In this document: positions 1 to 14,786 of the stretch, one piece after another | How positions within the stretch are numbered: the first letter of the stretch is position 1 | Layout of the letters: every line of letters begins with the position of its first letter | Virus record (IMG/VR): IMGVR_UViG_3300029068_000023 | Length of the DNA stretch: 14,786 nucleotides | Source: a virus | Taxonomy: Duplodnaviria > Heunggongvirae > Uroviricota > Caudoviricetes | Reading direction: 5' to 3' (one strand) | The notes under the pieces: generated by a model | What the model was told of the DNA's origin: nothing | Database searches by the model: none | The model's input: the letters and a program-made list of their open reading frames with translations, nothing else | Translations under genes and position numbers: made by a program

Positions 1-92
1 CAGCTGGCAAGCGAATGTAAAGACTGACTAAGCATGTAGTACCGAGGATGTAGGAATTTCGGACGCGGGTTCAACTCCCGCCAGCTCCACCA
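1..92 (+). ncRNA. ssrA: 3' portion of the tmRNA gene (ssrA), ending at the CCA terminus; 5' part lies outside the window
   Basis: Positions 1-92 match the sequence I recall for the 3' end of enterobacterial tmRNA, ending ggacgcgggttcaactcccgccagctccacca (61-92). A P4-type integrase follows directly, as at the E. coli ssrA locus. Confidence 0.88.
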
Positions 93-276: not shown

Positions 277-1500
277 GTGGCACGGACAACACGTCCTCTG
301 ACCAACACTGAAATTCTGCGGACTAAAGCTTTAGAGAAGGATCTAACACTGCATGATGGCGAGGGGCTTTTCCTGATAGTGAAAACAAACGGGAAAAAAC
401 TCTGGCGTTTCCGTTATCAACGTCCAACAACAAAACAGCGAACAATGATGGGGCTTGGTGCCTTCCCTGCCTTATCGCTTGCTGATGCCCGAAGGCTAAG
501 GGCTGAATACCTTTCCTTATTAGCCAATGGAATTGACCCGCAAATACAAGCTGAAGTTGCAGAGGAGCAGCAGAAAATCGTGCTTAACAGTATTTTTTCA
601 GCAGTCGCCTCTAACTGGTTCTTGCTCAAAAGCAAAAGTGTTACTCCTGATTACGCAAAGGATATTTGGCGCTCATTGGAAAAAGACGTACTCCCTGCTA
701 TTGGCGAGATCCCCGTTCAGCAAATCAAAGCCCGAACACTAGTTGAAGCACTTGAACCAATCAAAGCTCGCGGAGCACTGGAAACAGTTCGTCGCCTAGT
801 ACAACGTATTAACGAAATAATGATTTATGCGATTAACACTGGTTTGATTGATACTAATCCAGCATCAGGCATTGGTATGGCTTTTGAAAAACCCAAAAAG
901 CAAAACATGCCAACACTGCGGCCTGAAGAGTTACCTAAGCTGATGCGTTCTTTAGCTATGTCAAATCTTTCTATTCCAACTCGCTGTCTAATTGAATGGC
1001 AACTCCTGACACTTGTACGCCCATCTGAAGCTGCCGGTGCTCGATGGGTAGAGATCGATCTTGAAACAAAACTATGGACAATTCCCGCAGAACGGATGAA
1101 AGCCAAGCGTGAGCACATTGTTCCTTTATCACCACAAGCGTTAAATATACTCGATGTTATGAAGCCAATTAGTGGCCACCGAGAATTCATTTTTCCCAGC
1201 AGATGTGACCCGAAGAAGTCAATGAACAGTCAAACGGCGAATGCTGCTTTGAAACGGATAGGTTATGGAGGTAAACTGGTTGCCCATGGAATGCGCTCAA
1301 TAGCCAGCACGGCAATGAATGAATTTGGATTCAACCCAGATGTAATTGAAGCTGCACTTGCTCATATTGATAAAAATGAAGTTCGACGCGCGTACAACCG
1401 CTCAGTTTATCTTACTCAGCGTAAAGAATTGATGGAATGGTGGGGGGAACAATGTGTTTCGCAATTCTCATCTATTAGAAATAAGTGGCCCGTCTCCTAA
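277..1500 (+). CDS. int: P4-family tyrosine integrase (site-specific recombinase), GTG start
   Basis: 407-aa ORF next to the tmRNA 3' end. N-terminal arm-binding-like region (DGEGLFLIV...KLWRFRY) and C-terminal catalytic region with HGMRS...AHID...RRAYNRSVYL (conserved R, H-x-x-R, Y). GTG at 277 preceded by ggag (264-267). Confidence 0.92.
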   Translation: MARTTRPLTNTEILRTKALEKDLTLHDGEGLFLIVKTNGKKLWRFRYQRPTTKQRTMMGLGAFPALSLADARRLRAEYLSLLANGIDPQIQAEVAEEQQKIVLNSIFSAVASNWFLLKSKSVTPDYAKDIWRSLEKDVLPAIGEIPVQQIKARTLVEALEPIKARGALETVRRLVQRINEIMIYAINTGLIDTNPASGIGMAFEKPKKQNMPTLRPEELPKLMRSLAMSNLSIPTRCLIEWQLLTLVRPSEAAGARWVEIDLETKLWTIPAERMKAKREHIVPLSPQALNILDVMKPISGHREFIFPSRCDPKKSMNSQTANAALKRIGYGGKLVAHGMRSIASTAMNEFGFNPDVIEAALAHIDKNEVRRAYNRSVYLTQRKELMEWWGEQCVSQFSSIRNKWPVS

Positions 1501-1543: not shown

Positions 1544-2644
1544 ATGTACATTCAAGATATTCCTAAAGATTCAAAATTTTGGGTTGTTCGATCTGGTGAT
1601 GGCGGTATGTTTTATGACCACTTTGTGCACAACTCCATAGCAGCTATTGGGCACATTGACGCTATGGAATTTAGCGATCAGACCCTCAGTAATAAAGATG
1701 AAGTGATTAAACTCGTTTATAATTACAAACAAACTTTGCTTGAAAAAAAGGAAACACTTGCATCTGCATCTAATAAAGCAGGCCAAGTTCTACGTTTCAT
1801 TAATGAAATGTCAGTCGGTGATATAATTATAACTCTAGATGCAAGGAGAATAGTGGTCGGCAGGATCATATCTGGTCCTTATAAAGATATGGAAAATGTA
1901 ACATTACTCAATGTTGATGGAACAACAGATGAAAAATTGCTTAAATTTACCCTTAGACGTAAAGTTGAATGGGGAAAAACGCAGTTTCGTGACAAACTTC
2001 CATTAGCCATAAATAATAGTTTCAGGGCTAATCAAACTGTTTTCTCAGCAAACGAGCACTGGAAAGAGCTTAATCACTGGTTATCTGTTGCATTTATATC
2101 AGATAATGAAGCTTATATTTCCTCACGGATTGAGCAAACAGAAGGGATTAACAATCTTGACATTGCTCAATACTCCATAATAATAAATAAAATTGAAGCT
2201 ATTGCTCAAACAATCGCTAACAATGACAACTATCATTTCGATGATGATAAATTATTATCTCTCTTTGAAGATACATATAAAGAACTAAGAAAAAGTAGAA
2301 CATTTACGGTAACGACACAACAGGTATTTCTTTCACCAGGAGATCTTTGGGCAAAAATATCTGGAAGCCGTAAAAAAAGCCTGTTAGTTATCTGCACATT
2401 TCTTATAATGTTCAATATTGAGCCATCTTTCGCAGATGAAAATGACAAAATATTTTTCGACAACAACTATGAAGCAATATCTTTATTAATTAATAAAGTA
2501 AAACATGATGAAAACTTTGAGGAAGTAAAAAATGGATTAGCATTAAAAGTTCCTGCACAAAAACTAAACACAAAAAACACCTCTACAAACCCCAATAAAA
2601 AACGCTATGATGATGTAGAACCAGACGACTTTGAAGGCATTTAA
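1544..2644 (+). CDS. Hypothetical protein (366 aa), cargo gene A of the int-cos hotspot; function unknown, candidate anti-phage protein
   Basis: Long ORF with RBS aagga (1533-1537) 6 nt before ATG 1544. DNA is very AT-rich relative to the flanking P4 backbone. No Walker A, HEPN, PLD, RT or TIR/SIR2 motifs found by eye; acidic C-terminal tail (YDDVEPDDFEGI). Confidence 0.75.
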   Translation: MYIQDIPKDSKFWVVRSGDGGMFYDHFVHNSIAAIGHIDAMEFSDQTLSNKDEVIKLVYNYKQTLLEKKETLASASNKAGQVLRFINEMSVGDIIITLDARRIVVGRIISGPYKDMENVTLLNVDGTTDEKLLKFTLRRKVEWGKTQFRDKLPLAINNSFRANQTVFSANEHWKELNHWLSVAFISDNEAYISSRIEQTEGINNLDIAQYSIIINKIEAIAQTIANNDNYHFDDDKLLSLFEDTYKELRKSRTFTVTTQQVFLSPGDLWAKISGSRKKSLLVICTFLIMFNIEPSFADENDKIFFDNNYEAISLLINKVKHDENFEEVKNGLALKVPAQKLNTKNTSTNPNKKRYDDVEPDDFEGI

Positions 2645-3302
2645 GAGGATGATGAAGTTCATAAAAAAATGGTGGGATAACCATGATAAATCTAATAATT
2701 TTTTATCAGGTATCCATTACATCGTCATTTCGCTAGCTATCATAATTGGTGGCGCGTGGTCGTTGTATACCTTTGACGCATTACAAATGGCCAAAAATGC
2801 GGAAATCCAACTAAAAAAGGCTAACGAAGATTTAAAACAAATAAAAGAGCAAATTAAGGGCACTGACTCTAGCAGTATTGCTATTAATGTTATCCCGTTA
2901 AAAACACAGCTAGGAATGATTATTAATGTAACCATAAAAAATAACGGCAAACGACCATTATCCTTTGACACATCCAAAGGAGCTTTAACTGTGTACAAAG
3001 TAAGCGCAAATGGCGATAAAGTTGAACAATCTCAATCTTTTACACCAAATCTCTATACATCTTTGAGAGATAAAAAACACTATCCAGAATCAAAAAGCAA
3101 ATCATTATCAAAGACACATGTTTTAATAGGAGCAGAAAAAACCCTTAGCTATATTGTTGGATTAAATAAGCCAGGCGTTTATTATATTACATTTAGGTCA
3201 ACACCAGATGATAATTTTGACACAGAAGAATTAAAAAACAAAAAACCTGTAGAATGGTTCGCTTCTTCATATGTTGAAATTACCCCACAAAAATATAAAT
3301 AA
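2631..3302 (+). CDS. Hypothetical single-pass membrane protein (about 217-223 aa), cargo gene B; start ambiguous (TTG 2631, ATG 2649 or 2652)
   Basis: Overlaps or abuts the stop of gene A (2642-2644), suggesting translational coupling. AAGAGG at 2643-2648 precedes ATG 2649/2652. Basic N-terminus (KRMMKFIKKWW), one hydrophobic helix (FLSGIHYIVISLAIIIGGAWSLYTF), then a coiled-coil-like stretch and a beta-rich C-terminal domain. Confidence 0.7.
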   Translation: MKAFKRMMKFIKKWWDNHDKSNNFLSGIHYIVISLAIIIGGAWSLYTFDALQMAKNAEIQLKKANEDLKQIKEQIKGTDSSSIAINVIPLKTQLGMIINVTIKNNGKRPLSFDTSKGALTVYKVSANGDKVEQSQSFTPNLYTSLRDKKHYPESKSKSLSKTHVLIGAEKTLSYIVGLNKPGVYYITFRSTPDDNFDTEELKNKKPVEWFASSYVEITPQKYK

Positions 3303-3609
3303 AAAAAATAAGAAGCACACAAATGTTTTTATAGCCTAAAAAACCGCCACAATATTTAACAGCCACATTAAAACACATGCATTATGTTAATGCATTAAAT
3401 GAAATTAATCCTCCATCCACTCCGTAAAAATAACACTATCATAAACACATCAATAGAGTCATCCAAAAACACAAAAATAACTTTAACTCAATAATATTAA
3501 ACATTCCCCTTTCTAATCACTACTCTAACTTATTGTCGTAGATGAAGCGAGCAAACTCAATTGCGCTCTCAGACTTTGAAAAAATTGAACACATCAACAT
3601 TTGCGCGCA

Positions 3610-3628
3610 GTGCTTTCCCCGCCTCGCC
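3610..3628. other. cos site (cohesive-end 19-mer of P2/P4-type phages)
   Basis: gtgctttccccgcctcgcc (3610-3628) is the exact reverse complement of the 19-nt P2/P4 cohesive end GGCGAGGCGGGGAAAGCAC as I recall it; it lies next to psu as in P4. A GC hairpin ccgccc/gggcgg plus T4 follows at 3628-3651. Confidence 0.7.
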
Positions 3629-3731
3629 CGCCCGCTTTGCAGGGCGGTTTTAATGCAGTTGCACTGACACGCTCAGGCCGCGCCGGGAATGGCGCGGTCT
3701 GCAGAAAATGAGGCAGGAAAACGCATGCAAA

Positions 3732-3762
3732 GCCATGCACCTTATCGATGCATGGCTTTTTT
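3732..3762. terminator. Bidirectional stem-loop terminator between the cargo region and psu
   Basis: gccatgca (3732-3739) / tgcatggc (3749-3756), followed by T6 on the plus strand (3757-3762) and preceded by an A-rich run (terminator for the minus-strand psu transcript, stop at 3793). Confidence 0.55.
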
Positions 3763-3792
3763 CAGTAAAAACGGGCGGATTTTCGGGGGATT

Positions 3793-4365
3793 TTACACAG
3801 ACTGATGTGATGCCAGTTGCGCACTTTTACGCGAAAAAATCATGTTCTGCGCAGGGGTGAATTTTTCACGGCTGTCGTCCACCGAAGCCGCGTCAGGCCT
3901 GAATCCGATGGCCGTTAAAATGTCGCTATCCTGTGCGGAATAATTAATTTTTTCACCCTTTGCAAGCCAGGACAGAAGGGCTTCACGCAGGGCATCTGTG
4001 GCACGCTGTATGGCACAGTTTCGGGCAATGGCCGTCAGTTCACTGTAGCCCATCAGCTCCGGTGCCAGTGCGGCCGCCAGTACTGTGCCGTGCTGCTGCA
4101 TAAAATCATTCAGCCGGTCGCGGATGCTGATGTGCTGAACGGCTTCATGCGAACGAATATAACGACCGGCGGCCTGATTCACCTGCCATTTTCTGACTTC
4201 GATAATATTGCGTAATTCGTCCAGGCGACTGACGTTTCTGCCTTCTCCTGACAGAAGCCGCAGGTATTCCTGTTCGGCCGCTGCCAGCTCATTTTTGCGT
4301 TGCAGCCATGCTGCTTTGTTATTCTGACAGGTGTCAAAGGCCTGCTGTAAGGCTGTGCTTTCCAT
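3793..4365 (-). CDS. psu: Polarity suppression protein Psu (Rho antagonist / capsid decoration), P4-type
   Basis: 190 aa, the length of P4 Psu; sequence MESTALQQAFDTCQNNKAAWLQRKNELAAAEQEYLRLL... matches my recollection of P4 Psu; last gene of the sid-delta-psu operon next to cos. Confidence 0.9.
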   Translation of the reverse strand: MESTALQQAFDTCQNNKAAWLQRKNELAAAEQEYLRLLSGEGRNVSRLDELRNIIEVRKWQVNQAAGRYIRSHEAVQHISIRDRLNDFMQQHGTVLAAALAPELMGYSELTAIARNCAIQRATDALREALLSWLAKGEKINYSAQDSDILTAIGFRPDAASVDDSREKFTPAQNMIFSRKSAQLASHQSV

Positions 4366-4438: not shown

Positions 4439-4939
4439 TCATTCCAGACGCAGCGAATATGATTGTGTTTTTAACCGTACTGGCGGCAGTTCCTGTTTTT
4501 CATGCAGGCGTTCTGCCAGTTCGTCCGGCGTGACCGGGCGGACAATGAAGCGGTTGATGGTCTGAAGCGTTTTAAACACCAGACCACAGCCCGGATCCGT
4601 GCACACATAAAAACGTTCAGTGACTTCCTGAGACAGACGCCGCGATGTTCTTGACAGTGCAAGGCCTTTACATCTCCGACAACAATATCCGGTAACAAGC
4701 ATTCTTTTCGGGCGTTTCATACTGCCGGAGGCTGACGTCAGTGAATCGCGGTATCTCTGTTTGCCTGAAATGTATTCCATTCCTGAATCTTTACTGTCAG
4801 AGAAAAAGCTTTCACTCGCTTCAAATGTCGCAGAGCAATAAATATTCCGGCACTGTGCAATCATTATCTTGGTGCCATCGTCCATGAAATGTGCGCGACG
4901 GGTGTGAGCAACATGTCCACACGACGGGCAGTAAATCAT
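4439..4939 (-). CDS. delta: Delta, Ogr-family zinc-finger late transcription activator (tandem Ogr-like domains)
   Basis: 166 aa; two Cys-rich Ogr-like halves (MIYCPSCGH...CRNIYC and CCRRC...YVCTDPGCG); start overlaps the sid stop (ATGA at 4936-4939). Confidence 0.9.
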   Translation of the reverse strand: MIYCPSCGHVAHTRRAHFMDDGTKIMIAQCRNIYCSATFEASESFFSDSKDSGMEYISGKQRYRDSLTSASGSMKRPKRMLVTGYCCRRCKGLALSRTSRRLSQEVTERFYVCTDPGCGLVFKTLQTINRFIVRPVTPDELAERLHEKQELPPVRLKTQSYSLRLE

Positions 4940-6222: not shown

Positions 6223-6489
6223 ATGCAAGCTGTTTTTTCTTCCCCGTCTCCCGCCCCTGTGACGCCACTGATGCCGCTGCCGGACATCACACAGGAGCGT
6301 TTTTTACGTCTTCCGGAAGTGATGCACCTGTGCGGCCTGTCACGCTCGACCATCTACGAACTCATCCGTAAGGGGGAATTTCCGCCGCAGGTGAGTCTTG
6401 GCGGTAAAAATGTGGCCTGGCTGCACTCTGAAGTCACCGCATGGATGGCCGGACGCATTGCCGGACGCAAACGGGGGTACGACGCATGA
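6223..6489 (+). CDS. vis: Vis, AlpA-family excisionase-like DNA-binding regulator
   Basis: 88 aa (P4 orf88/Vis length); helix-turn-helix core [29 protein letters not shown] typical of the AlpA family; SD gagg 7 nt upstream of ATG 6223. Confidence 0.8.
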
Positions 6490-7085
6490 TGATACCCGCT
6501 CTGCAAAAACTCCCTTTTTCTGGCTTGCCTTTTTCCGGCATTTGCGGATATAGTTTTTCCGCTGCCGCAAAATCGGCAGCCGGGCGTGAGAACCCGAGCA
6601 ATTCACAGGCGACATATGACGCGCCACGCGTCTTTTTTTGTGTCGCAATCAATGCCACAGAGCGCCAGATTATGGTGTGGTGTGTGGTCAGTCGTGCAGA
6701 TGGCATTCCGTGCATCCTGCCCGCGTCCGCTCATTATGCCGCAGAGTCAATGGTAGCTCAGGCGGGGCAGCCTCCGGGCTGGCCGGTATCCTGTGAAGCC
6801 GGTATTCTCACCCCCGTCTGGGCTATCGCCATCGAGCGTGAGAACTCCGGCGATAGCGTTATTTGCTATTCACAGGAGGCTGCCATCATGGCTACAACCC
6901 TTACCCCCTCACACCCTGAATTTGTCTTTGTGTTTGCGGCTGTCCGTCGCGCAGACCGTCATCCCCGTATCTGTATGCTTCGCACCGTCGCCGGTGATGA
7001 ACGCAGTGCCCGCCGTTCCCTTGTCCGTGACTATGTGCTCTCCCTTGCTGCCCGTCTGCCGGTGGTGGAGGTGTCCCGTGCGTAA
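6486..7085 (+). CDS. 199-aa ORF coupled to vis by an ATGA overlap and spanning the immunity-like region; coding status uncertain
   Basis: ATG 6486 overlaps the vis stop; the ORF runs 600 bp to TAA 7083-7085. The N-terminal two-thirds is Cys-rich and overlaps structured RNA-like elements; the last 65 codons have their own strong RBS (aggagg 6874-6879, ATG 6888). Either the full ORF or only 6888-7085 may be the real gene. Confidence 0.4.
6584..6876 (+). ncRNA. Immunity-like structured region (candidate CI-RNA / seqA-seqB-seqC type transcription-termination control)
   Basis: Two copies of gcgtgagaac (6584-6593, 6836-6845), each followed by attcacagg (6601-6609, 6868-6876); a partially complementary ttctcac at 6805-6811; a 9-bp stem hairpin at 6822-6857 enclosing the second copy; an intrinsic terminator at 6618-6639. 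Assignment to individual P4 elements is not resolved. Confidence 0.35.
6618..6639 (+). terminator. Intrinsic terminator within the immunity-like region
   Basis: gacgcg (6618-6623) / cgcgtc (6627-6632) stem with 3-nt loop, followed by T7 (6633-6639). Confidence 0.55.
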
Positions 7086-8283: not shown

Positions 8284-10617
8284 ATGAAAATGAACGTAAC
8301 CGCCACCGTCAGCCATGCGCTCGGCCACTGGCCGCGTATTCTCCCGGCGCTGGGGATTCAGGTGCTGAAAAACCGTCATCAGCCCTGTCCGGTCTGTGGC
8401 GGGAGTGACCGCTTCCGTTTTGATGACAGGGAGGGGCGCGGCACCTGGTACTGCAATCAGTGTGGTGCCGGTGACGGCCTGAAACTGGTTGAAAAGGTGT
8501 TTGGTGTTTCCCCGTCCGACGCGGCCGCAAAGGTGGCTGCCGTGACCGGCAGCCTGCCCCCGGCTGACCCGGCAGTGACGGCTGCCGCCGGTGCTGAAAC
8601 AGACGCCGCCCGGAAGAACGCCGCCGCACTGGCACAAACCCTGATGGCGAAAACCCGTCCCGGAACCGGTAACGCCTACCTGACCCGCAAGGGCTTTCCC
8701 GGCCGGGAATGCCGGATGCTGACCGGCACACACAGAGCCGGTGGCGTGAGCTGGCGCGCCGGTGACCTTGTGGTGCCACTGTATGACGACAGCGGCGAAC
8801 TGGTTAACCTTCAGTTAATCAGTGCTGACGGCCGTAAGCGCACCCTGAAAGGCGGACAGGTCAGGGGCACCTGTCACACCCTTGAAGGACAGAATCAGGC
8901 CGGAAAACGTCTGTGGATAGCGGAGGGATACGCGACCGCACTTACCGTGCATCACCTGACCGGTGAAACGGTGATGGTGGCGCTTTCTTCCGTGAACCTC
9001 CTTTCTCTGGCCAGCCTTGCCCGGCAGAAGCACCCCGCCTGTCAGATTGTCCTTGCCGCTGACCGTGACCTCAGCGGTGACGGCCAGAAAAAAGCCGCCG
9101 CAGCCGCAGATGCGTGTGAAGGTGTTGTTGCCCTGCCGCCGGTCTTCGGTGACTGGAATGATGCCTTCACGCAGTACGGCGGGGAAGCCACCCGTAAGGC
9201 CATTTATGATGCCATCCGGCCACCGGCTGAAAGCCCGTTCGACACCATGAGCGAAGCGGAGTTTTCCGCCATGAGTACGAGCGAAAAGGCCATGCGTATC
9301 TATGAGCATTACGGCGAGGCGCTCGCGGTCGATGCCAACGGCCAGCTTCTGTCCCGTTATGAAAATGGTGTCTGGAAGGTGCTGCCACCACAGGACTTTG
9401 CCCGGGATGTGGCCGGGCTGTTTCAGCGGCTACGCGCGCCGTTCTCCTCCGGGAAGGTGGCCTCCGTGGTGGACACCCTGAAGCTGATTATTCCGCAGCA
9501 GGAAGCCCCCTCCCGCCGCCTGATTGGCTTTCGTAACGGCGTGCTCGACACGCAGAACGGCACGTTCCACCCGCACAGTCCGTCACACTGGATGCGCACC
9601 CTGTGCGATGTGGATTTCACCCCGCCGGTGGACGGTGAAACGCTGGAAACCCACGCTCCCGCGTTCTGGCGCTGGCTTGACCGTGCTGCCGGTGGTCGTG
9701 CGGAAAAACGCGACGTGATTCTGGCCGCACTGTTTATGGTGCTGGCAAACCGCTACGACTGGCAGCTCTTTCTGGAGGTGACCGGTCCCGGCGGCAGCGG
9801 CAAAAGTATCATGGCCGAAATAGCCACCCTGCTGGCCGGGGAGGATAACGCCACGTCGGCCACCATTGAGACGCTGGAATCCCCGCGTGAACGTGCCGCG
9901 TTAACTGGCTTCTCACTGATACGCCTGCCGGACCAGGAAAAATGGAGCGGCGACGGAGCCGGACTCAAGGCCATCACCGGCGGCGATGCGGTGTCCGTTG
10001 ACCCGAAATACCGGGATGCGTACTCCACGCACATCCCGGCGGTGATTCTGGCCGTGAACAATAACCCGATGCGCTTCACCGACCGCAGCGGCGGCGTGTC
10101 ACGCCGGCGGGTGATTATTCACTTCCCGGAACAGATAGCCCCGCAGGAGCGCGACCCGCAGCTTAAGGACAAAATCACCCGCGAGCTGGCGGTCATCGTG
10201 CGTCACCTGATGCAGAAGTTCAGCGACCCGATGCTCGCCCGGTCACTGCTTCAGTCCCAGCAGAACTCAGACGAGGCACTGAACATCAAACGGGATGCCG
10301 ACCCGACGTTTGATTTTATCGGCTATCTGGAAACCCTGCCGCAGACCAGCGGCATGTATATGGGGAACGCCAGTATCATCCCGCGTAATTACCGTAAATA
10401 CCTCTATCACGCCTATCTGGCCTACATGGAGGCAAACGGCTACCGGAATGTACTCAGTCTGAAAATGTTCGGGCTGGGGCTGCCGGTGATGCTGAAGGAA
10501 TACGGACTGAATTACGAGAAGCGCCATACCAAACAGGGGATACAGACCAACCTGACGCTGAAAGAGGAAAGCTACGGCGACTGGCTGCCAAAATGTGATG
10601 ACCCTGCAACAGCCTGA
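8284..10617 (+). CDS. alpha: Alpha, bifunctional primase-helicase replication protein (zinc-binding primase + superfamily-3 helicase + C-terminal origin-binding domain)
   Basis: 777 aa (P4 alpha length). N-terminal zinc motif CPVCGGSDRFRFDD...WYCNQCG, TOPRIM-like primase region, Walker A GPGGSGKS (near 9786-9809); SD aaggag upstream of ATG 8284. Confidence 0.95.
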   Translation: MKMNVTATVSHALGHWPRILPALGIQVLKNRHQPCPVCGGSDRFRFDDREGRGTWYCNQCGAGDGLKLVEKVFGVSPSDAAAKVAAVTGSLPPADPAVTAAAGAETDAARKNAAALAQTLMAKTRPGTGNAYLTRKGFPGRECRMLTGTHRAGGVSWRAGDLVVPLYDDSGELVNLQLISADGRKRTLKGGQVRGTCHTLEGQNQAGKRLWIAEGYATALTVHHLTGETVMVALSSVNLLSLASLARQKHPACQIVLAADRDLSGDGQKKAAAAADACEGVVALPPVFGDWNDAFTQYGGEATRKAIYDAIRPPAESPFDTMSEAEFSAMSTSEKAMRIYEHYGEALAVDANGQLLSRYENGVWKVLPPQDFARDVAGLFQRLRAPFSSGKVASVVDTLKLIIPQQEAPSRRLIGFRNGVLDTQNGTFHPHSPSHWMRTLCDVDFTPPVDGETLETHAPAFWRWLDRAAGGRAEKRDVILAALFMVLANRYDWQLFLEVTGPGGSGKSIMAEIATLLAGEDNATSATIETLESPRERAALTGFSLIRLPDQEKWSGDGAGLKAITGGDAVSVDPKYRDAYSTHIPAVILAVNNNPMRFTDRSGGVSRRRVIIHFPEQIAPQERDPQLKDKITRELAVIVRHLMQKFSDPMLARSLLQSQQNSDEALNIKRDADPTFDFIGYLETLPQTSGMYMGNASIIPRNYRKYLYHAYLAYMEANGYRNVLSLKMFGLGLPVMLKEYGLNYEKRHTKQGIQTNLTLKEESYGDWLPKCDDPATA

Positions 10618-11281: not shown

Positions 11282-14200
11282 TCAGAACGACCAGTTCACA
11301 CCAGCTACCGCGTTCCACGGGGATTCCACACCGGCACTATGGCTATACCCCACCCCAAGATGCCCGCTTAACGTACTGCTGAATGAGGCTTTAATACCTG
11401 CCTGGTATATTCCACGTCTGCCCGACAAATAATTGACGAAATTACCGTCACTATTCACTTTCACCCGGTTATCATCGACAAATTCTTTGCGCACAGCCGC
11501 CTTCAGCCACGGCTCAACTTCCATACCGTTCCCCAGACGCATGTTGTAACTCAGCGTTGCGCCCAGTTCACGATATATACTGCGGGTATCGACTGATTTC
11601 GATTTCATGCCATTGGATAAATGATATTCGGGGTTATCAGCGGTGAACCCCGTTAACGATGCATACGGCGTCAGGTTCCAGTTACCATCGGTAAATCGCA
11701 TCCCGGTTTCAATGTGACCGCCCAGCCCGTTGCTGTGGTAACTGCCATTGGCGGCTCCACCGCTGCTCATTTTACCTGCTACGTTACTTTTAAAACGGTT
11801 CAGCTTCACGACACCGTCCAGATAGAAACCACTTTCATGTTCCCAACTGGCATAGCCGCCCAGAGAATAACTGCCCACACTGCCATGTCCTCCGCGATCA
11901 AAACCGATATGTGAATGGGAATAGCCCATAAAAGCGCCTAGCGTGGTAATTCCTTCAGGAATATCATTACGGCTGTCGATCCCCACTGTCATTCCGGTCA
12001 GCGTCTGCTCAAACCCGGCACCCGCATCGGTGGTGACATTATTACGGGTGTTATACGTCGCCCCCCAGACATTATTGTTGTGTGGACTCGCTTTCATTAT
12101 GTTCAACCGCTCGCGAATACTGTTTAGCTCAGCATCAAATACCAACGGTAATGTTGCTGCCATATTGAGTACGGCTGGCGTAGAAGGCGTAATGCGTTTC
12201 TCCGGAACGGGTGTCGGCGTTGGATCGGGAGTAGGGTCTGGTTTTGGATTTGGGTCTGGCTTTGGATCGGGTTTTGGGTCTGGCTTTGGATTTGGGATGG
12301 GGTCCGGGTTGGGTTTGACATCATTGGTCAGGTTCCAGTTGCTGTTGCCGTCACTTTTCAGGACATACTCATAGGTCCCAAGATCAACGAAACCGCCGGT
12401 ATTGCCCAGCGTAAACGAAGCATCCCCTCCCCCTGTTTTCACCAGCGTCATCGCGTCGTCAGACTGTGGGCTGACGCCGGTATCCTGAACAAAGATTTTA
12501 AAATTACCAGTGGCGTTGTTGTTGACGACCAGTTGATCGCCCCGGGAGCCTGCAACGTTGGTATGCAGGTAGAAATTACCGCTACCGGAAAGTTCATTGG
12601 TTGTCAGCGTATTGTAGATACCGTTAGTTGTGGCAGGCGCTGCTGTTTGTGCTGACAAATAAACATCACCGTCGTTGAGTAGCAAACTGTTTACTCTATA
12701 TTCGCAGTTGCTGGTACCTGCACAGGAATTATTGCTGTTAAGCCAGACACTGCCCCGGCTGGCAGCCGTCAGGTCGGCAAGCGTGGTATCGACGCCATTT
12801 CCCAGAGTCAATGTCGCGCTATCGGTAATCCGGACCGCCCCTTCGAGTTTAACTGGCGTAACATTATCCCGTGGCGTCATTAACGACAGGCTTCCTGTCG
12901 CGCCACTGACCGATGCATCCGCCAGCGTACCTGCGTAGACGATTGCCGTACCGCCAGCGACCTGGAGATCTTCTGCCCGGGCCAGAGCCTGAAACTCATC
13001 TTTTGACCGCCCAAGGGTATATTGCCCGCCAGAGTTAACCTTTGTGGCGGAGTCCTGACCCAGGTTTTGCATTGCCCCACCCTTGCCAACCGTGGAGTCG
13101 CGAGCTTCGGTACCTGCTAATACCAATAAATTACCGCCATTTTCCAGCAACATATTGGTCGCTAAATTGCCGGAAATGGAAAAAGTACCGTACTGGTGAG
13201 TACCGCTGATTTCAATACCGTTAGCCGTGCTCGTCTGGAGAGCGGCACCGCTGTTCTGGACGATATCTGTCGCTTTGCCATTATCGTTGACTGTCAGCGT
13301 ACCGCCTTCATTGATCTTTGTTTTTATTGCCTCTCCGTTAGCTGAAACTGTTTGTATTCCGCCGTCGTTAATTGTTGTCTCATTCGCCACACCCTCGACA
13401 ATTTGTTCACCGCCGGTGAGCGTCGTGCCTGTCGCAGTGGCTTTTGTTTTGACGATCTCCCGTCCGCCCATATTGACCTGTGTTTTGTCAGAAGAGGTGT
13501 CTGACTCCACGGTTAACACGCCGCCATTTGCCAGCAGGATATTGTTCGCCGCACCCTGCTCGATGCTGAACGCGACGCCATCCGCGCGTGTTCCTGTGAC
13601 CCGCGTCGCCCTGGTGGTTGCAACCAAAGCGCCCTGGCTACTCTGCTGTATCCCCGTTGCGCTGCCTTTCTCCCGCACATCGAGTGTGCCGCCGTCATTA
13701 AGCACCGAGTTTTCAGCCAGACCGCCCTCATTAACTACCTGTGAACCCCCATTAATAATGGAACCTTCCGCTGTCCCGTTTGCCATAATTTGTTGTAGGC
13801 CAGAGACGATATCGGTATTGATTGCCTTACCATAATTCTGAACGGTTTGCGTGCCACCATTGATGTGTGTTTTCTCTGTTGACCCACCATCAACAATTTG
13901 TTCACCACTTTCGATATTTGCTTCAGTGGCTAAACCATATACCGTTTGCTTGCCACCTTTGATATTTGCTTTATCAGAAGTGGCACTGGCATATATTGTT
14001 TGGGTGCCAGCACTATTGAGTACAGTGCCAACATCTTTTCCATAAACATCCATTTTGCCGTTGGCATTAATAATCGTGTCAACTGCGCGGGAACCAGTGA
14101 CGACTGTTAATGAGCCAGCGTTTTCCAGCACTACATTTTTAGCTTCTGAATTCCTGATGTAGAAAGCATCACCATAACTGTTGGTTCCTTCGATAAGTGT

Positions 14201-14755
14201 TCCGGAGGTCGTGGAAGCAATTAATGCGCCGCCGGATTGTTGCTCAACATGCTTAGCCTCACCACCGTCCTGAACCTCCAGAACGCCGCCATTATTAAGT
14301 CTGGTGCTATCTGTTTTAGCCTCCTTCTGGACAATCAGCTTACCGCCAGTATCAATGGTAGTATTTTTCGCCGAGGTTTTAGCCACTACCGTCAGTTCGC
14401 CGGTATTTTCCAGCACAACATAGTTAGCCTCCCCTCCGGTAATAGTGAAGTGAGAGAGCTTGTTGTATCCTTCGATATCAGTCCCTGCACCCGTGTTGGC
14501 AACTAAAGCACTGCCCGTCTCCTGGTTAACCCCATGTGCAATACCGCCGGTATAGACAATCAGCGAGCCTCCGGCGCTAATATTGCTGCCAATTGCCGTA
14601 CCATCTTTCTCAACAACCTGCCGGCTCCCGGAGGATATAATTGTTGTGTCAGCTTTCCCGCCGCTTTTGATATTTTGCGTTCCGCTGTTGATATTGGTGC
14701 GGCTTTGTTGAATAAATAAGATTTCGTGCGAACGACCCTGTAGCTGGCTGGATTT
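11282..14755 (-). CDS. Autotransporter (type Va) adhesin-like protein: beta-helical passenger, proline-rich linker, C-terminal beta-barrel; N-terminus not resolved in the window
   Basis: C-terminus ends ...AGVNWSF (aromatic terminal residue typical of outer-membrane beta-barrels); linker PNPDPIPNPKPDPKPDPKPDPNPKPDPTPDPTP; passenger has repeated Gly-rich beta-helix motifs. By my translation the frame is open from 14755 to 11282 (the ORF track starts it at GTG 14416), with an in-frame TGA at 14756-14758. Position next to the ssrA island resembles ypjA of E. coli K-12, not confirmed. Confidence 0.8.
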   Translation of the reverse strand, partial: KSSQLQGRSHEILFIQQSRTNINSGTQNIKSGGKADTTIISSGSRQVVEKDGTAIGSNISAGGSLIVYTGGIAHGVNQETGSALVANTGAGTDIEGYNKLSHFTITGGEANYVVLENTGELTVVAKTSAKNTTIDTGGKLIVQKEAKTDSTRLNNGGVLEVQDGGEAKHVEQQSGGALIASTTSGTLIEGTNSYGDAFYIRNSEAKNVVLENAGSLTVVTGSRAVDTIINANGKMDVYGKDVGTVLNSAGTQTIYASATSDKANIKGGKQTVYGLATEANIESGEQIVDGGSTEKTHINGGTQTVQNYGKAINTDIVSGLQQIMANGTAEGSIINGGSQVVNEGGLAENSVLNDGGTLDVREKGSATGIQQSSQGALVATTRATRVTGTRADGVAFSIEQGAANNILLANGGVLTVESDTSSDKTQVNMGGREIVKTKATATGTTLTGGEQIVEGVANETTINDGGIQTVSANGEAIKTKINEGGTLTVNDNGKATDIVQNSGAALQTSTANGIEISGTHQYGTFSISGNLATNMLLENGGNLLVLAGTEARDSTVGKGGAMQNLGQDSATKVNSGGQYTLGRSKDEFQALARAEDLQVAGGTAIVYAGTLADASVSGATGSLSLMTPRDNVTPVKLEGAVRITDSATLTLGNGVDTTLADLTAASRGSVWLNSNNSCAGTSNCEYRVNSLLLNDGDVYLSAQTAAPATTNGIYNTLTTNELSGSGNFYLHTNVAGSRGDQLVVNNNATGNFKIFVQDTGVSPQSDDAMTLVKTGGGDASFTLGNTGGFVDLGTYEYVLKSDGNSNWNLTNDVKPNPDPIPNPKPDPKPDPKPDPNPKPDPTPDPTPTPVPEKRITPSTPAVLNMAATLPLVFDAELNSIRERLNIMKASPHNNNVWGATYNTRNNVTTDAGAGFEQTLTGMTVGIDSRNDIPEGITTLGAFMGYSHSHIGFDRGGHGSVGSYSLGGYASWEHESGFYLDGVVKLNRFKSNVAGKMSSGGAANGSYHSNGLGGHIETGMRFTDGNWNLTPYASLTGFTADNPEYHLSNGMKSKSVDTRSIYRELGATLSYNMRLGNGMEVEPWLKAAVRKEFVDDNRVKVNSDGNFVNYLSGRRGIYQAGIKASFSSTLSGHLGVGYSHSAGVESPWNAVAGVNWSF
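12205..12315 (-). repeat. Short tandem repeat encoding the Pro-Asp-Pro-Lys linker of the autotransporter
   Basis: Tandem units of ggatttgggtct / ggctttggatcg type on the plus strand, giving the PNPKPDPKPDP repeats on the minus strand. Confidence 0.6.
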
Positions 14756-14786
14756 TCAGGCAATACGCACGCTTTCTGGCATCCCA

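What the first reader, a model, noticed from the sequence alone, without database searches (positions are those of the whole stretch)
2631..3302. Gene B is an N-in single-pass membrane protein with an exported beta-rich domain: possible superinfection-exclusion factor or membrane effector
Seen: a basic N-terminus (KRMMKFIKKWW) precedes one hydrophobic helix, then a coiled-coil-like stretch (AKNAEIQLKKANEDLKQIKEQIKG) and about 150 residues rich in beta-forming residues. The positive-inside rule predicts the C-terminal domain is periplasmic. Inference: this architecture is typical of small phage-encoded proteins that block DNA injection, or of membrane-disrupting abortive-infection effectors. 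The start codon is ambiguous (TTG 2631 overlapping gene A, or ATG 2649/2652 right after AAGAGG), which changes the length of the cytoplasmic tail.
Basis: partly seen in the sequence, partly recalled or inferred. Interest (0 to 1): 0.6.

Follow-up and report, generated by a model that had tools for sequence, protein, structure and literature searches.

The report
Membrane partner of two-gene defence cargo
Gene B is a real inner-membrane protein with a coiled-coil stalk and a periplasmic Ig-like domain, always paired with an upstream protein that has a modified-base-reader fold, and the pair travels as cargo in known anti-phage hotspots of satellites and prophages, so it is probably an unnamed two-gene phage-defence module.

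Summary
Gene B (best start ATG 2649/2652, not TTG 2631; stop 3302) encodes a 216-217 aa protein. It has a short basic N-tail, one transmembrane helix (aa 18-42), a heptad coiled-coil stalk (aa 43-73) and a confidently modelled beta-sandwich (aa 74-211). Relatives with an extra N-terminal helix place the beta domain outside the cytoplasm, and the putative signal-peptidase site is not conserved.

In 12 distinct loci, down to 27% B identity, it directly follows gene A (DUF8426). Gene A's N-terminal domain has an EVE/YTH-like fold, as found in readers of modified bases, and no nuclease domain was found.

The pair is AT-rich cargo in the int-psu hotspot of a P4-like satellite at ssrA. Only 2 of 5,426 complete E. 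coli genomes carry it. It also sits in the cI-int prophage hotspot, in a Proteus prophage moron region and beside a type I R-M system.

B matches no PADLOC, NCBIfam or Pfam family above threshold. Its fold is a generic Ig/DUF4352-like sandwich. The closest characterised architecture is mycobacterial Mpr.

My best reading is an unnamed two-gene anti-phage module acting at the inner membrane. No function was tested.

The parts
1..92 (+). 3' end of ssrA (tmRNA); attachment site of the element
   Evidence: Rfam RF00023, 77 bits, cut at the 5' end. In the matching complete E. coli genome the same integrase follows ssrA.
277..1500 (+). P4-type tyrosine integrase; left flank of the hotspot
   Evidence: Pfam Arm-DNA-bind_3, Phage_int_M and Phage_integrase.
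1544..2644 (+). Gene A, 366 aa, DUF8426 family; obligate upstream partner of B
   Evidence: Homologues carry PF28530/DUF8426. An A homologue lies directly upstream of B in 12 distinct loci.
1574..2128 (+). Gene A N-terminal domain (aa 11-195): PUA-like EVE/YTH/ASCH fold
2303..2359 (+). Gene A motif FTVTTQQVFLSPGDLWAKI (aa 254-272), the most conserved stretch of A
   Evidence: Mean pairwise identity is 91%, against 67% for the EVE-like domain. AF2 pLDDT is below 50 for aa 255-266. SPGD-I/L-W is kept in a 32%-identity relative, L023.
2369..2410 (+). Gene A hydrophobic helix (aa 276-289)
   Evidence: Hydropathy peak 1.73. AF2 helix 276-289. The uninterrupted hydrophobic core is only about 12 residues, which is short for a membrane span (inference).
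2549..2641 (+). Gene A disordered tail ending in the conserved acidic motif DDVEPDDFEGI
   Evidence: pLDDT is below 50 for aa 336-366. An acidic tail with a G-[IML] end is kept in the window, L004, L012, L002, L006 and L011, and more loosely in L018.
2643..2648 (+). Shine-Dalgarno-like AAGAGG, overlapping the stop of A (TAA 2642-2644)
   Evidence: Read directly from the sequence. The junction is equally tight in all pairs, from -29 to +18 nt.
2649..3302 (+). Gene B, 217 aa from ATG 2649 (216 aa from ATG 2652); stop TAA 3300-3302
2649..2699 (+). B cytoplasmic N-tail (aa 1-17), conserved WWDNHDKSNN motif
   Evidence: W9, N11, H12 and N16 are invariant or nearly so in the close family.
2700..2774 (+). 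B transmembrane helix (aa 18-42) with GGxW...YTF aromatic end
   Evidence: Hydropathy 1.99. W37 is kept in 88 of 89 relatives, G35 in 78 of 89, F42 in 79 of 89. It is the most conserved region family-wide.
2775..2867 (+). B coiled-coil stalk (aa 43-73)
   Evidence: Stalk length varies in 7-residue steps across the family: 24, 31, 38, 45. AF2 models it as a helix.
2868..3281 (+). B periplasmic Ig-like beta-sandwich (aa 74-211)
3303..3593 (.). AT-rich non-coding remainder of the cargo; the right edge of the variable region is at about 3593-3603
   Evidence: GC is 0.29 for 3001-3500. Similarity to other P4-like elements starts at query position 344-354 of window 3250-3850. No Rfam hit.
3793..4365 (-). 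psu (polarity suppression protein); right flank of the hotspot
   Evidence: Pfam Psu E 2.4e-88.

Best explanation
Gene B is the inner-membrane subunit of a conserved two-gene module (A plus B). The module is mobile cargo in anti-phage hotspots and is most likely an unnamed anti-phage defence system.

Shown here:
- B has a short conserved cytoplasmic tail, one transmembrane helix, a heptad coiled-coil stalk and a beta-sandwich.
- The beta-sandwich faces the periplasm, as judged from relatives with two transmembrane helices.
- A has an EVE/YTH-like fold of the kind that reads modified bases, followed by a helical domain and a conserved acidic C-terminal tail. No nuclease domain was found.
- The two genes are translationally coupled and diverge in step.

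Inferred, not shown:
- B oligomerises through its stalk.
- B holds A at the membrane, plausibly by A's acidic tail binding B's basic WWxNH tail.
- B exposes an Ig-like head with two hypervariable loops to the periplasm.

The mechanism I commit to is action at the point of genome entry. The head detects or obstructs the phage's envelope-crossing apparatus. The tethered A then engages the incoming, possibly modified, nucleic acid, and infection stops early. This would work like Kiwa or Mpr rather than like a pore-forming suicide effector.

Rough likelihoods:
- Topology and architecture: about 0.85.
- A and B as one functional unit: about 0.85.
- Anti-phage role: about 0.65.
- The entry-site mechanism in particular: about 0.3.
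For: Architecture and topology.

A-B linkage: an A homologue lies immediately upstream of B in 12 distinct loci.
- Loci: E. coli, Salmonella, Pectobacterium, Yersinia, Proteus, Providencia, Aeromonas and five metagenome or read-assembly contigs.
- Gene junctions span -29 to +18 nt.
- Divergence is matched: in Aeromonas, A is 40% and B is 41% identical to the window proteins.

Hotspot cargo:
- GC is 0.29-0.35 in the cassette against 0.43-0.64 in the rest of the window.
- 2,250 of 5,426 complete E. coli genomes share the psu-side flank, but only 2 carry A+B.
- int-psu is an experimentally established defence hotspot, and so is cI-int in K139-like prophages (PMC9122126). The Aeromonas locus and L011 lie between a cI/S24 repressor and an integrase.
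- Six of 8 randomly chosen unknown cargoes at P4 defence loci protected against phages (PMC13586616).

Neighbours elsewhere include type I R-M, putAbiC, Fic/YhfG, RES and ParDE.

Precedent for the architecture: Mpr is about 215 aa with one transmembrane helix and a periplasmic DUF4352 domain. It gives non-abortive phage resistance, and escape mutations map to a minor tail protein (PMC9262609; PMC12596739).

Within B, the transmembrane region is the most conserved part and two head loops are hypervariable.
Against: - No experiment bears on function.
- B matches no defence family in PADLOC 2.0.0. Neither did 89 diverse relatives, apart from two weak single hits.
- B has no match in 50,697 phage records.
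- The beta-sandwich is a generic fold with no diagnostic neighbour.
- The K/R bias around the transmembrane helix is weak family-wide: mean 1.99 before against 1.69 after. Topology therefore rests mainly on the two-helix relatives.
- The A-B contact through the two tails is pure inference. No complex model could be run.
- Remote B-like proteins occur without A (L009, L019). A remote A-like protein occurs with a different partner (L023). Neither protein is therefore intrinsically dependent on the other.
- A has no recognised effector domain, which fits equally well with A as sensor and B as effector.
- Newer DefenseFinder models and DefensePredictor could not be consulted.
Confidence: 0.4

Rival explanations
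1. Abortive infection with B as the effector. A senses a phage-derived nucleic acid or modified nucleotide through its EVE-like pocket in the cytoplasm. It then triggers B through B's short cytoplasmic tail. B oligomers disrupt or depolarise the inner membrane, killing the cell before phage release.
For: - Sensor-like fold in A with no effector domain found.
- B has a highly conserved transmembrane helix with a GGxW packing motif and an oligomerising coiled coil.
- Overexpressed Mpr, and Mpr truncations that keep the transmembrane helix, damage membrane integrity (PMC9262609).
- A PUA-family domain in another E. coli defence module senses a modified nucleotide (abstract of bioRxiv 10.64898/2026.01.15.699771).
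- From my own knowledge: many two-gene systems use small membrane effectors.
Against: - Only about 17 residues of B face the cytoplasm.
- A conserved 140-residue periplasmic domain on a stalk of quantised length is not needed for a simple membrane-disrupting effector.
- A single transmembrane helix per chain is a weak basis for a pore.
Confidence: 0.3
2. B alone is a superinfection-exclusion protein that blocks DNA injection from the periplasmic side. A is an independent neighbour, for example a single-gene system like PDC-S02.
For: - B's architecture resembles small membrane-anchored exclusion proteins and Mpr.
- PDC-S02, which matches A's N-domain, is catalogued by PADLOC as a candidate. From my own knowledge, its 'S' label denotes a single-gene candidate.
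- Remote B-like proteins occur without A.
Against: - Twelve of 12 loci of B's own clade keep A immediately upstream, with overlapping or abutting stop and start codons and matched divergence, in unrelated mobile-element backbones.
- B matches no known exclusion family in Pfam or PHROGs.
Confidence: 0.12
3. The pair is not a defence system. It could be an addiction (toxin-antitoxin-like) pair, a counter-defence or host-manipulation cargo, or an envelope or adhesion function useful to the satellite or host.
For: - No defence family matches B.
- Ig-like domains are common in adhesins.
- Neighbours include toxin-antitoxin genes.
- Two of 8 unknown P4 hotspot cargoes gave no protection in PMC13586616.
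Against: - The pair sits in two different established defence hotspots and next to a type I R-M system.
- An EVE/YTH-like fold is typical of modification-sensing immunity (PMC7641849 and PMC7897488, listed).
- The pair is rare and patchy across genera, as defence cargo is.
Confidence: 0.15

Closest known systems
Mpr (multicopy phage resistance protein, MSMEG_1236) of Mycobacterium smegmatis
   Same: Similar size, about 215 aa. One N-in transmembrane helix (aa 33-50), a linker, then a predicted extracytoplasmic DUF4352 beta-sandwich (aa 83-211). It is membrane-bound, oligomerises and confers phage resistance. The resistance is reported as non-abortive, with escape through a minor tail protein (PMC9262609; PMC12596739).
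   Different: B itself scores 18.0 bits against DUF4352, below the 25.9 cutoff, over only 26 residues. B has a heptad coiled-coil stalk where Mpr has a low-complexity linker. B's cytoplasmic tail is about 17 aa, against about 32 aa in Mpr, where an exonuclease activity is claimed. Mpr is a single chromosomal gene, whereas B is coupled to gene A on mobile elements.
Kiwa (KwaA/KwaB) and Zorya: membrane sensor plus cytoplasmic DNA-acting partner. This comparison rests on my own knowledge of the literature, not on a paper read here.
   Same: Two-part logic: a membrane-embedded component at the envelope and a soluble nucleic-acid-binding partner encoded next to it. These systems act early, at or after genome entry.
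   Different: No sequence relationship: neither A nor B hits a Kiwa or Zorya model in PADLOC. From my own knowledge, KwaA is polytopic and ZorAB is a motor-like complex. B is single-pass with a large periplasmic Ig-like head.
EVE-HNH and other PUA-superfamily modification-dependent (type IV) restriction enzymes, e.g. VcaM4I
   Different: A has no HNH, PD-(D/E)XK or other recognisable nuclease domain. Its partner is a membrane protein. No Pfam EVE, YTH or ASCH model matches A by sequence.
PADLOC candidate system PDC-S02
   Same: Five PDC-S02 models match A aa 11-189, best E 2.5e-18.
   Different: The match covers only the N-terminal half of both A and the models (positions 3-165 of about 300-346). 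PDC-S02 is an uncharacterised candidate, listed only in surveys, with no B-like partner. B hits nothing in PADLOC.
Small prophage-encoded injection blockers such as lactococcal Sie2009, S. thermophilus TP-J34 Ltp and T4 Imm/Sp. This comparison is from my own knowledge.
   Same: Small, membrane-anchored proteins with an extracytoplasmic domain, encoded by resident mobile elements and active against incoming phages.
   Different: B shows no detectable homology to them: no Pfam or PHROG match to any exclusion family. Those proteins act as single genes, whereas B is obligately paired.

Membership tests
DUF4352 (PF11611; Mpr/YcdA-type Ig-like domain) | Sequence match to the Pfam model at or above the gathering score of 25.9 bits | tested here: not met
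   B scores 18.0 bits, E 0.0036, over aa 96-121 only. Five of 89 relatives match, best E 9.2e-6. The family profile hits the DUF4352 lipoprotein YcdA (4r4g) at E 0.032. This is a remote relationship at most.
DUF4352 (PF11611; Mpr/YcdA-type Ig-like domain) | Beta-sandwich (Ig-like) fold placed outside the cytoplasm after an N-terminal membrane anchor | tested here: met
   [not shown]
Known anti-phage defence proteins (PADLOC-DB 2.0.0) | Match of B to any of the 5,027 models | tested here: not met
   No family at E up to 1 for B. Among 89 relatives there were only two isolated weak hits, Avs1b at 0.0025 and DpdE at 0.0076.
PDC-S02 (PADLOC candidate) | Full-length match of gene A to a PDC-S02 model | tested here: not met
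   The match is limited to A aa 11-189 and model positions 3-165 of about 300-346. The C-terminal halves differ.
EVE/YTH/ASCH (PUA-like) modified-base readers: gene A N-domain | PUA-like beta-barrel fold | tested here: met
   [not shown]
EVE/YTH/ASCH (PUA-like) modified-base readers: gene A N-domain | Sequence match to a Pfam EVE, YTH or ASCH model | tested here: not met
   No Pfam family at E up to 0.1 for A. No PDB sequence hit with the A profile at E up to 1.
EVE/YTH/ASCH (PUA-like) modified-base readers: gene A N-domain | Aromatic cage that binds a flipped modified base | not testable with these tools
   Many invariant aromatic residues exist (W13, F27, Y61, F85, W143, W173, W179).
Superinfection-exclusion families in Pfam and PHROGs (such as T4 Imm and SieB) | Sequence match of B | tested here: not met
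   Pfam gave only four sub-threshold, unrelated hits. PHROGs gave only phrog_806, of unknown function, at E 0.049.
P4-like satellite int-psu hotspot cargo | Located between the P4-type integrase and psu, variable between otherwise similar elements | tested here: met
   Gene order is int 277-1500, A, B, psu 3793-4365, delta, sid-like, alpA, Ash, DUF5375, alpha primase. The psu flank is shared by 2,250 of 5,426 genomes and the cargo by 2. The hotspot is defined in PMC9122126.
Single-pass N-in membrane protein (uncleaved signal anchor) | One hydrophobic span of about 20 or more residues, no conserved signal-peptidase site, cytoplasmic side more positively charged | tested here: met
   Hydropathy 1.99. 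The -1 residue is I, V, L or F in 59 of 89 relatives. K+R counts are 4 against 1 in the window protein and 39 in the loop against 3 at the N-terminus in 13 two-helix relatives. Dedicated predictors were not available.

The most novel reading that the evidence does not exclude
A+B may be a new type of anti-phage system. In it, a nuclease-less EVE/YTH-like reader of modified bases is tethered to the inner membrane by a coiled-coil, periplasm-facing Ig-like receptor. Recognition of the phage's injection apparatus outside the membrane would then be coupled to capture of modified incoming nucleic acid inside it. The wider B-like family of transmembrane helix, heptad stalk and beta-sandwich has 431 representative proteins and no Pfam or defence annotation. 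It would then be a general envelope-side sensor module reused with different partners.
Probability: 0.2. Interest if true: 0.8.

Novelty: new variant of a known kind. Interest (0 to 1): 0.5.

Why it matters
If the pair protects against phages, it adds an unnamed system to the defence repertoire of P4-like satellites and prophage hotspots.

It also has an unusual logic. A modified-base-reader fold with no nuclease is coupled to a membrane protein whose bulk lies in the periplasm. That would bear on how bacteria detect or stop phage genome entry at the envelope, a question now being opened by work on Kiwa, Zorya and Mpr.

It would also give a first functional handle on a widespread unannotated protein family (431 clusters at 50% identity) and on DUF8426.

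If it does not protect, it remains an ordinary pair of hypothetical cargo genes.

Tried and rejected
- TTG 2631 as the start codon: rejected. The extension is not conserved, the AAGAGG motif lies inside it, and PGAP uses ATG 2649.
- Cleavable signal peptide (GGA|W): rejected, because the -1 residue is not conserved as a small residue.
- C-domain in the cytoplasm, as in a Cap15-like effector: disfavoured by the two-helix relatives.
- Antisense ORF 2717-2998: treated as a shadow ORF in AT-rich DNA.
- Sequence libraries for B (PADLOC, NCBIfam, PHROGs, Pfam): nothing above threshold.
- PDB sequence search with the A and B profiles: nothing useful.
- tblastn of B against 50,697 phage records: no match.
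- The search for related loci with diverse B alignments failed for lack of a conserved stretch. With the close alignment it found only one species-representative genome and three viral contigs.
- The second profile search with the search for homologous proteins added few distant members.
- Literature searches for PDC-S02, DUF8426, protein accessions, and EVE plus transmembrane: no characterisation of this pair.
- The six systems described from unknown P4 cargo in PMC13586616 (Crouga, Bandua, Aernus, Toga, Reve, Hailong) do not fit A/B by their descriptions. That paper's supplements are not held.
- An S24/cI-like repressor as a third component: rejected. It is the prophage repressor that flanks the cI-int hotspot, and the three copies are only distantly related.
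- Salmonella 'truncated' A (264 aa): this is an annotation start artefact, and the frame is intact over 367 aa.
Full report
**What the window is**

The window starts with the 3' end of ssrA (tmRNA, 1-92). A P4-type integrase follows at 277-1500. Next comes a low-GC stretch holding gene A (1544-2644) and gene B (to 3302).

On the minus strand lie psu (3793-4365), an Ogr/Delta gene (4439-4939) and a sid-like ORF. After these come AlpA, the P4 immunity RNAs (isrK, c4-a1b1, C4), an Ash-family gene, DUF5375, an alpha-type primase (8284-10617) and an AIDA/Ag43-type autotransporter.

This is a P4-like satellite integrated at ssrA. A complete E. coli genome with 99.7% identical DNA has the same order and annotates both A and B as hypothetical proteins.

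GC is 0.29-0.35 across A, B and the spacer, against 0.43-0.64 in the rest of the window.

Yes.
- Hydropathy gives one clear transmembrane segment. The 19-residue Kyte-Doolittle peak is 1.99, at aa 18-42 of the 217-aa form.
- AlphaFold2, run with 20 homologues, gives one long helix (aa 2-71) followed by a 10-strand beta-sandwich (aa 76-211). pLDDT is about 83-94 over most of aa 80-185. Mean pLDDT is 77.7.
- The 'coiled-coil-like' stretch is supported by more than appearance. In 88 relatives, the segment between the conserved YTF and SSSI motifs is 24, 31, 38 or 45 residues in 67 cases. Of the 29 that are longer than 24, 23 differ by a multiple of seven. Indels that keep heptad register are what a functional coiled coil predicts. 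B therefore very likely oligomerises.
- The gene is conserved at 54-100% identity in 31 clusters from Escherichia, Salmonella, Leclercia, Pectobacterium, Buttiauxella, Plesiomonas, Providencia, Morganella, Proteus and Yersinia.

**Start codon**

Orthologues begin M-(G/K/S)-F-(I/F)-K-K, which aligns with ATG 2652. One begins MM, as in the window. AAGAGG (2643-2648) overlaps the TAA of gene A and would fall inside a TTG-2631 ORF. PGAP chose ATG 2649.

I reject TTG 2631. ATG 2649 and 2652 cannot be separated by sequence alone. In all pairs the stop of A and the start of B are -29 to +18 nt apart, which points to translational coupling.

**Topology**

- In the window protein, the 15 residues before the helix hold four K/R and the 15 after hold one. 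Family-wide the bias is weak (1.99 against 1.69).
- Thirteen relatives carry an extra N-terminal helix. Summed over them, K+R is 3 before helix 1, 39 in the loop homologous to B's N-tail, and 27 in the 15 residues after helix 2. By the positive-inside rule the loop, and hence B's N-tail, is cytoplasmic, and the stalk and beta-sandwich are outside.
- The sequence GGA|W could look like a signal-peptidase site. However, the -1 position is I, V, L or F in 59 of 89 relatives, so an uncleaved signal anchor is the better reading.
- W37 (88 of 89), G35 (78 of 89) and F42 (79 of 89) form a conserved GGxW...YTF end of the helix. The transmembrane region is the most conserved part of the protein family-wide. 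That is unusual for a passive anchor.

**What the beta domain is**

By sequence the only lead is DUF4352. B scores 18 bits, below the 25.9 cutoff. Five of 89 relatives match, with best E 9.2e-6. The family profile touches the DUF4352 lipoprotein YcdA at E 0.032.

No catalytic fold is indicated. Two loops of the head (aa 138-156 and 185-201) are much more variable than the rest.

**The family**

An exhaustive profile search of 1.84 billion representatives finds 431 proteins at E up to 1e-3, and 88 at E up to 1e-10. Nearly all are 190-260 aa and match end to end. None of 89 sampled members has a PADLOC or Pfam name beyond the weak hits above. Gene B therefore belongs to a widespread, unannotated family of proteins built as transmembrane helix, heptad stalk and beta-sandwich.

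**Gene B is not alone**

In every locus of B's own clade that I could read, a homologue of gene A lies directly upstream. The loci are:
- E. coli (this window);
- Salmonella (L026), where A is intact over 367 aa and the 264-aa call is an annotation artefact;
- Pectobacterium (L027);
- a 71%-identity metagenome contig (L021);
- Proteus (L004), Providencia (L012), Yersinia (L002) and Aeromonas (L006);
- four more distant contigs (L011, L018, L008, L010), reaching down to 27% B identity.

Divergence is matched. In Aeromonas, A is 40% and B is 41% identical to the window proteins.

At greater distance the modules separate. Two remote B-like genes lack A (L009, L019). A 32%-identity A-like gene has a different 129-aa partner (L023).

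**Gene A**

Homologues carry PF28530 (DUF8426), a family newer than the local Pfam copy.

PADLOC's candidate PDC-S02 (E 2.5e-18) and a REase_II model (E 2.8e-5) match the same region. These folds read modified bases in type IV restriction and related immunity (PMC7641849 and PMC7897488, listed). At least one PUA module senses a modified mononucleotide (abstract).

The rest of A is helical and contains:
- an extremely conserved motif, FTVTTQQVFLSPGDLW, at 91% pairwise identity and low model confidence;
- a short hydrophobic helix (aa 276-289);
- a disordered tail ending in the conserved acidic DDVEPDDFEG-[I/M].

I found no nuclease or other effector domain.

**Context**

The int-psu interval of P4-like satellites is an experimentally established hotspot of anti-phage systems (PMC9122126). 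Similarity to other E. coli P4-like elements resumes at about window 3593-3603. In all, 2,250 of 5,426 complete genomes share that flank, but only 2 carry A+B.

The same paper defines a second hotspot, between cI and int of K139-like prophages. The Aeromonas locus and L011 place A+B exactly there, and L011 has putAbiC alongside.

Elsewhere the pair sits:
- in a moron cluster inside the tail module of a Proteus prophage;
- in another primase/AlpA satellite in Yersinia;
- next to a type I R-M system;
- next to Fic/YhfG, RES and ParDE toxin modules.

In a 2026 study, 6 of 8 randomly chosen unknown cargoes at P4 defence loci protected against phages. The systems described there do not fit A/B (PMC13586616).

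**How it most likely works**

What is shown is the architecture of both proteins, their coupling, and their residence in defence hotspots.

The rest is inferred. A+B is probably a membrane-tethered complex. The only cytoplasmic part of B is its conserved basic tail (KFIKKWWDNHDKSNN). The most obvious partner for that tail is A's conserved acidic C-terminal tail.

I favour action at genome entry. The oligomeric, stalked Ig-like head with variable loops would meet the phage's envelope-crossing machinery. A's reader domain would meet the incoming nucleic acid. The outcome would be early and non-abortive.

Three things support this choice. The first is the size and conservation of the periplasmic part. 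The second is the precedent of Mpr, a single-pass protein of similar size with a periplasmic DUF4352 domain, which gives non-abortive resistance with escape in a minor tail protein (PMC9262609 and PMC12596739). The third is the membrane-sensor-plus-DNA-binder logic of Kiwa and Zorya, which I cite from my own knowledge.

The main rival has A as sensor and B as a membrane-damaging abortive effector. It is nearly as likely. A stand-alone exclusion role for B is less likely because of the strict pairing. No function has been tested, and none of these can be decided from sequence.

**Comparison, novelty and verdict**

B fails the sequence tests for DUF4352, for every PADLOC model and for the exclusion families, so I do not file it under any of them. 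It resembles Mpr in architecture only. A shares a fold, but no detectable sequence family, with EVE/YTH readers, and it overlaps PDC-S02 only in its N-terminal half.

The kind of thing, defence-type cargo in a satellite hotspot, is well known. This particular pair, and the combination of a nuclease-less reader fold with a periplasm-facing single-pass partner, was not described in any source I could search. I rate it a new variant of a known kind, with moderate interest (0.5).

Noticed in passing
window 2303-2359 (gene A aa 254-272): The motif FTVTTQQVFLSPGDLWAKI is the most conserved part of gene A, at 91% mean pairwise identity against 67% for the EVE-like domain. AlphaFold2 is not confident there (pLDDT below 50 for aa 255-266). 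SPGD-[IL]-W survives in a 32%-identity soil relative that lacks a B partner (L023). It could be an active site or an oligomer interface.
   Followed up: partly
window 2609-2641 (gene A C-terminus): A disordered tail ends in a conserved acidic motif with a hydrophobic last residue, DDVEPDDFEG-[I/M]. It is kept in relatives down to about 40% identity and lies directly upstream of B's basic N-tail codons. It is a candidate docking peptide for B.
   Followed up: partly
L004 and L005, 6400-13400 (Proteus mirabilis prophage): Here the A+B pair lies in a cluster of accessory genes inserted between the tail assembly chaperone genes and the tape-measure gene of a siphophage-like prophage. The cluster includes DUF4145, an HTH-S24 repressor-like gene, ORF6N and an antirepressor. 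This is an unusual place for moron cargo.
   Followed up: no
L009 5983-7267 and L019 487-1083: A remote subfamily of B-like proteins, with an NSQLQVQNAxAQL-type stalk, occurs without any A homologue. In L009 the B-like gene overlaps a downstream 216-aa polytopic membrane protein and sits among transposases and group II introns. In L019 a SnoaL-like gene lies upstream.
   Followed up: partly
L023 2237-3665: A 32%-identity A-like protein (348 aa, soil metagenome) lacks the acidic tail. It is followed, with an 8-nt overlap, by a 129-aa soluble protein instead of a B-like membrane protein. The reader module therefore appears to be reused with other partners.
   Followed up: no
window 3303-3593: About 290 nt of very AT-rich DNA lie after gene B, inside the variable cargo. 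There is no ORF of 50 aa or more and no Rfam match. A terminator-like hairpin lies further on, at 3628-3647 on the + strand, in the conserved psu-side flank. The stretch could be a remnant of earlier cargo or a regulatory region.
   Followed up: partly
window 11282-14757 (- strand): An AIDA/Ag43-type autotransporter (AIDA repeats, Pertactin, Autotransporter beta-domain) lies next to the satellite. Its reading frame stays open upstream of the listed GTG start, to about 14757, where there is a stop. No Met or signal peptide is visible in that stretch, so the gene may be N-terminally disrupted or may use a start I did not identify.
   Followed up: partly
window 6548-6833: The P4 immunity RNA set is intact: c4-a1b1 (6548-6600), isrK (6561-6638) and C4 antisense RNA (6746-6833). 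They overlap ORFs listed mechanically in this region, including the Ash-family ORF 6441-7085.
   Followed up: no
[not shown]
   Followed up: no
L026 6196-6990 and protein clusters P0056-P0059: Many Salmonella, Klebsiella and Cronobacter records annotate gene A as a 251-264 aa protein. In L026 the full 367-aa frame is intact, so these are start-site miscalls that hide the EVE-like domain in public annotation.
   Followed up: yes
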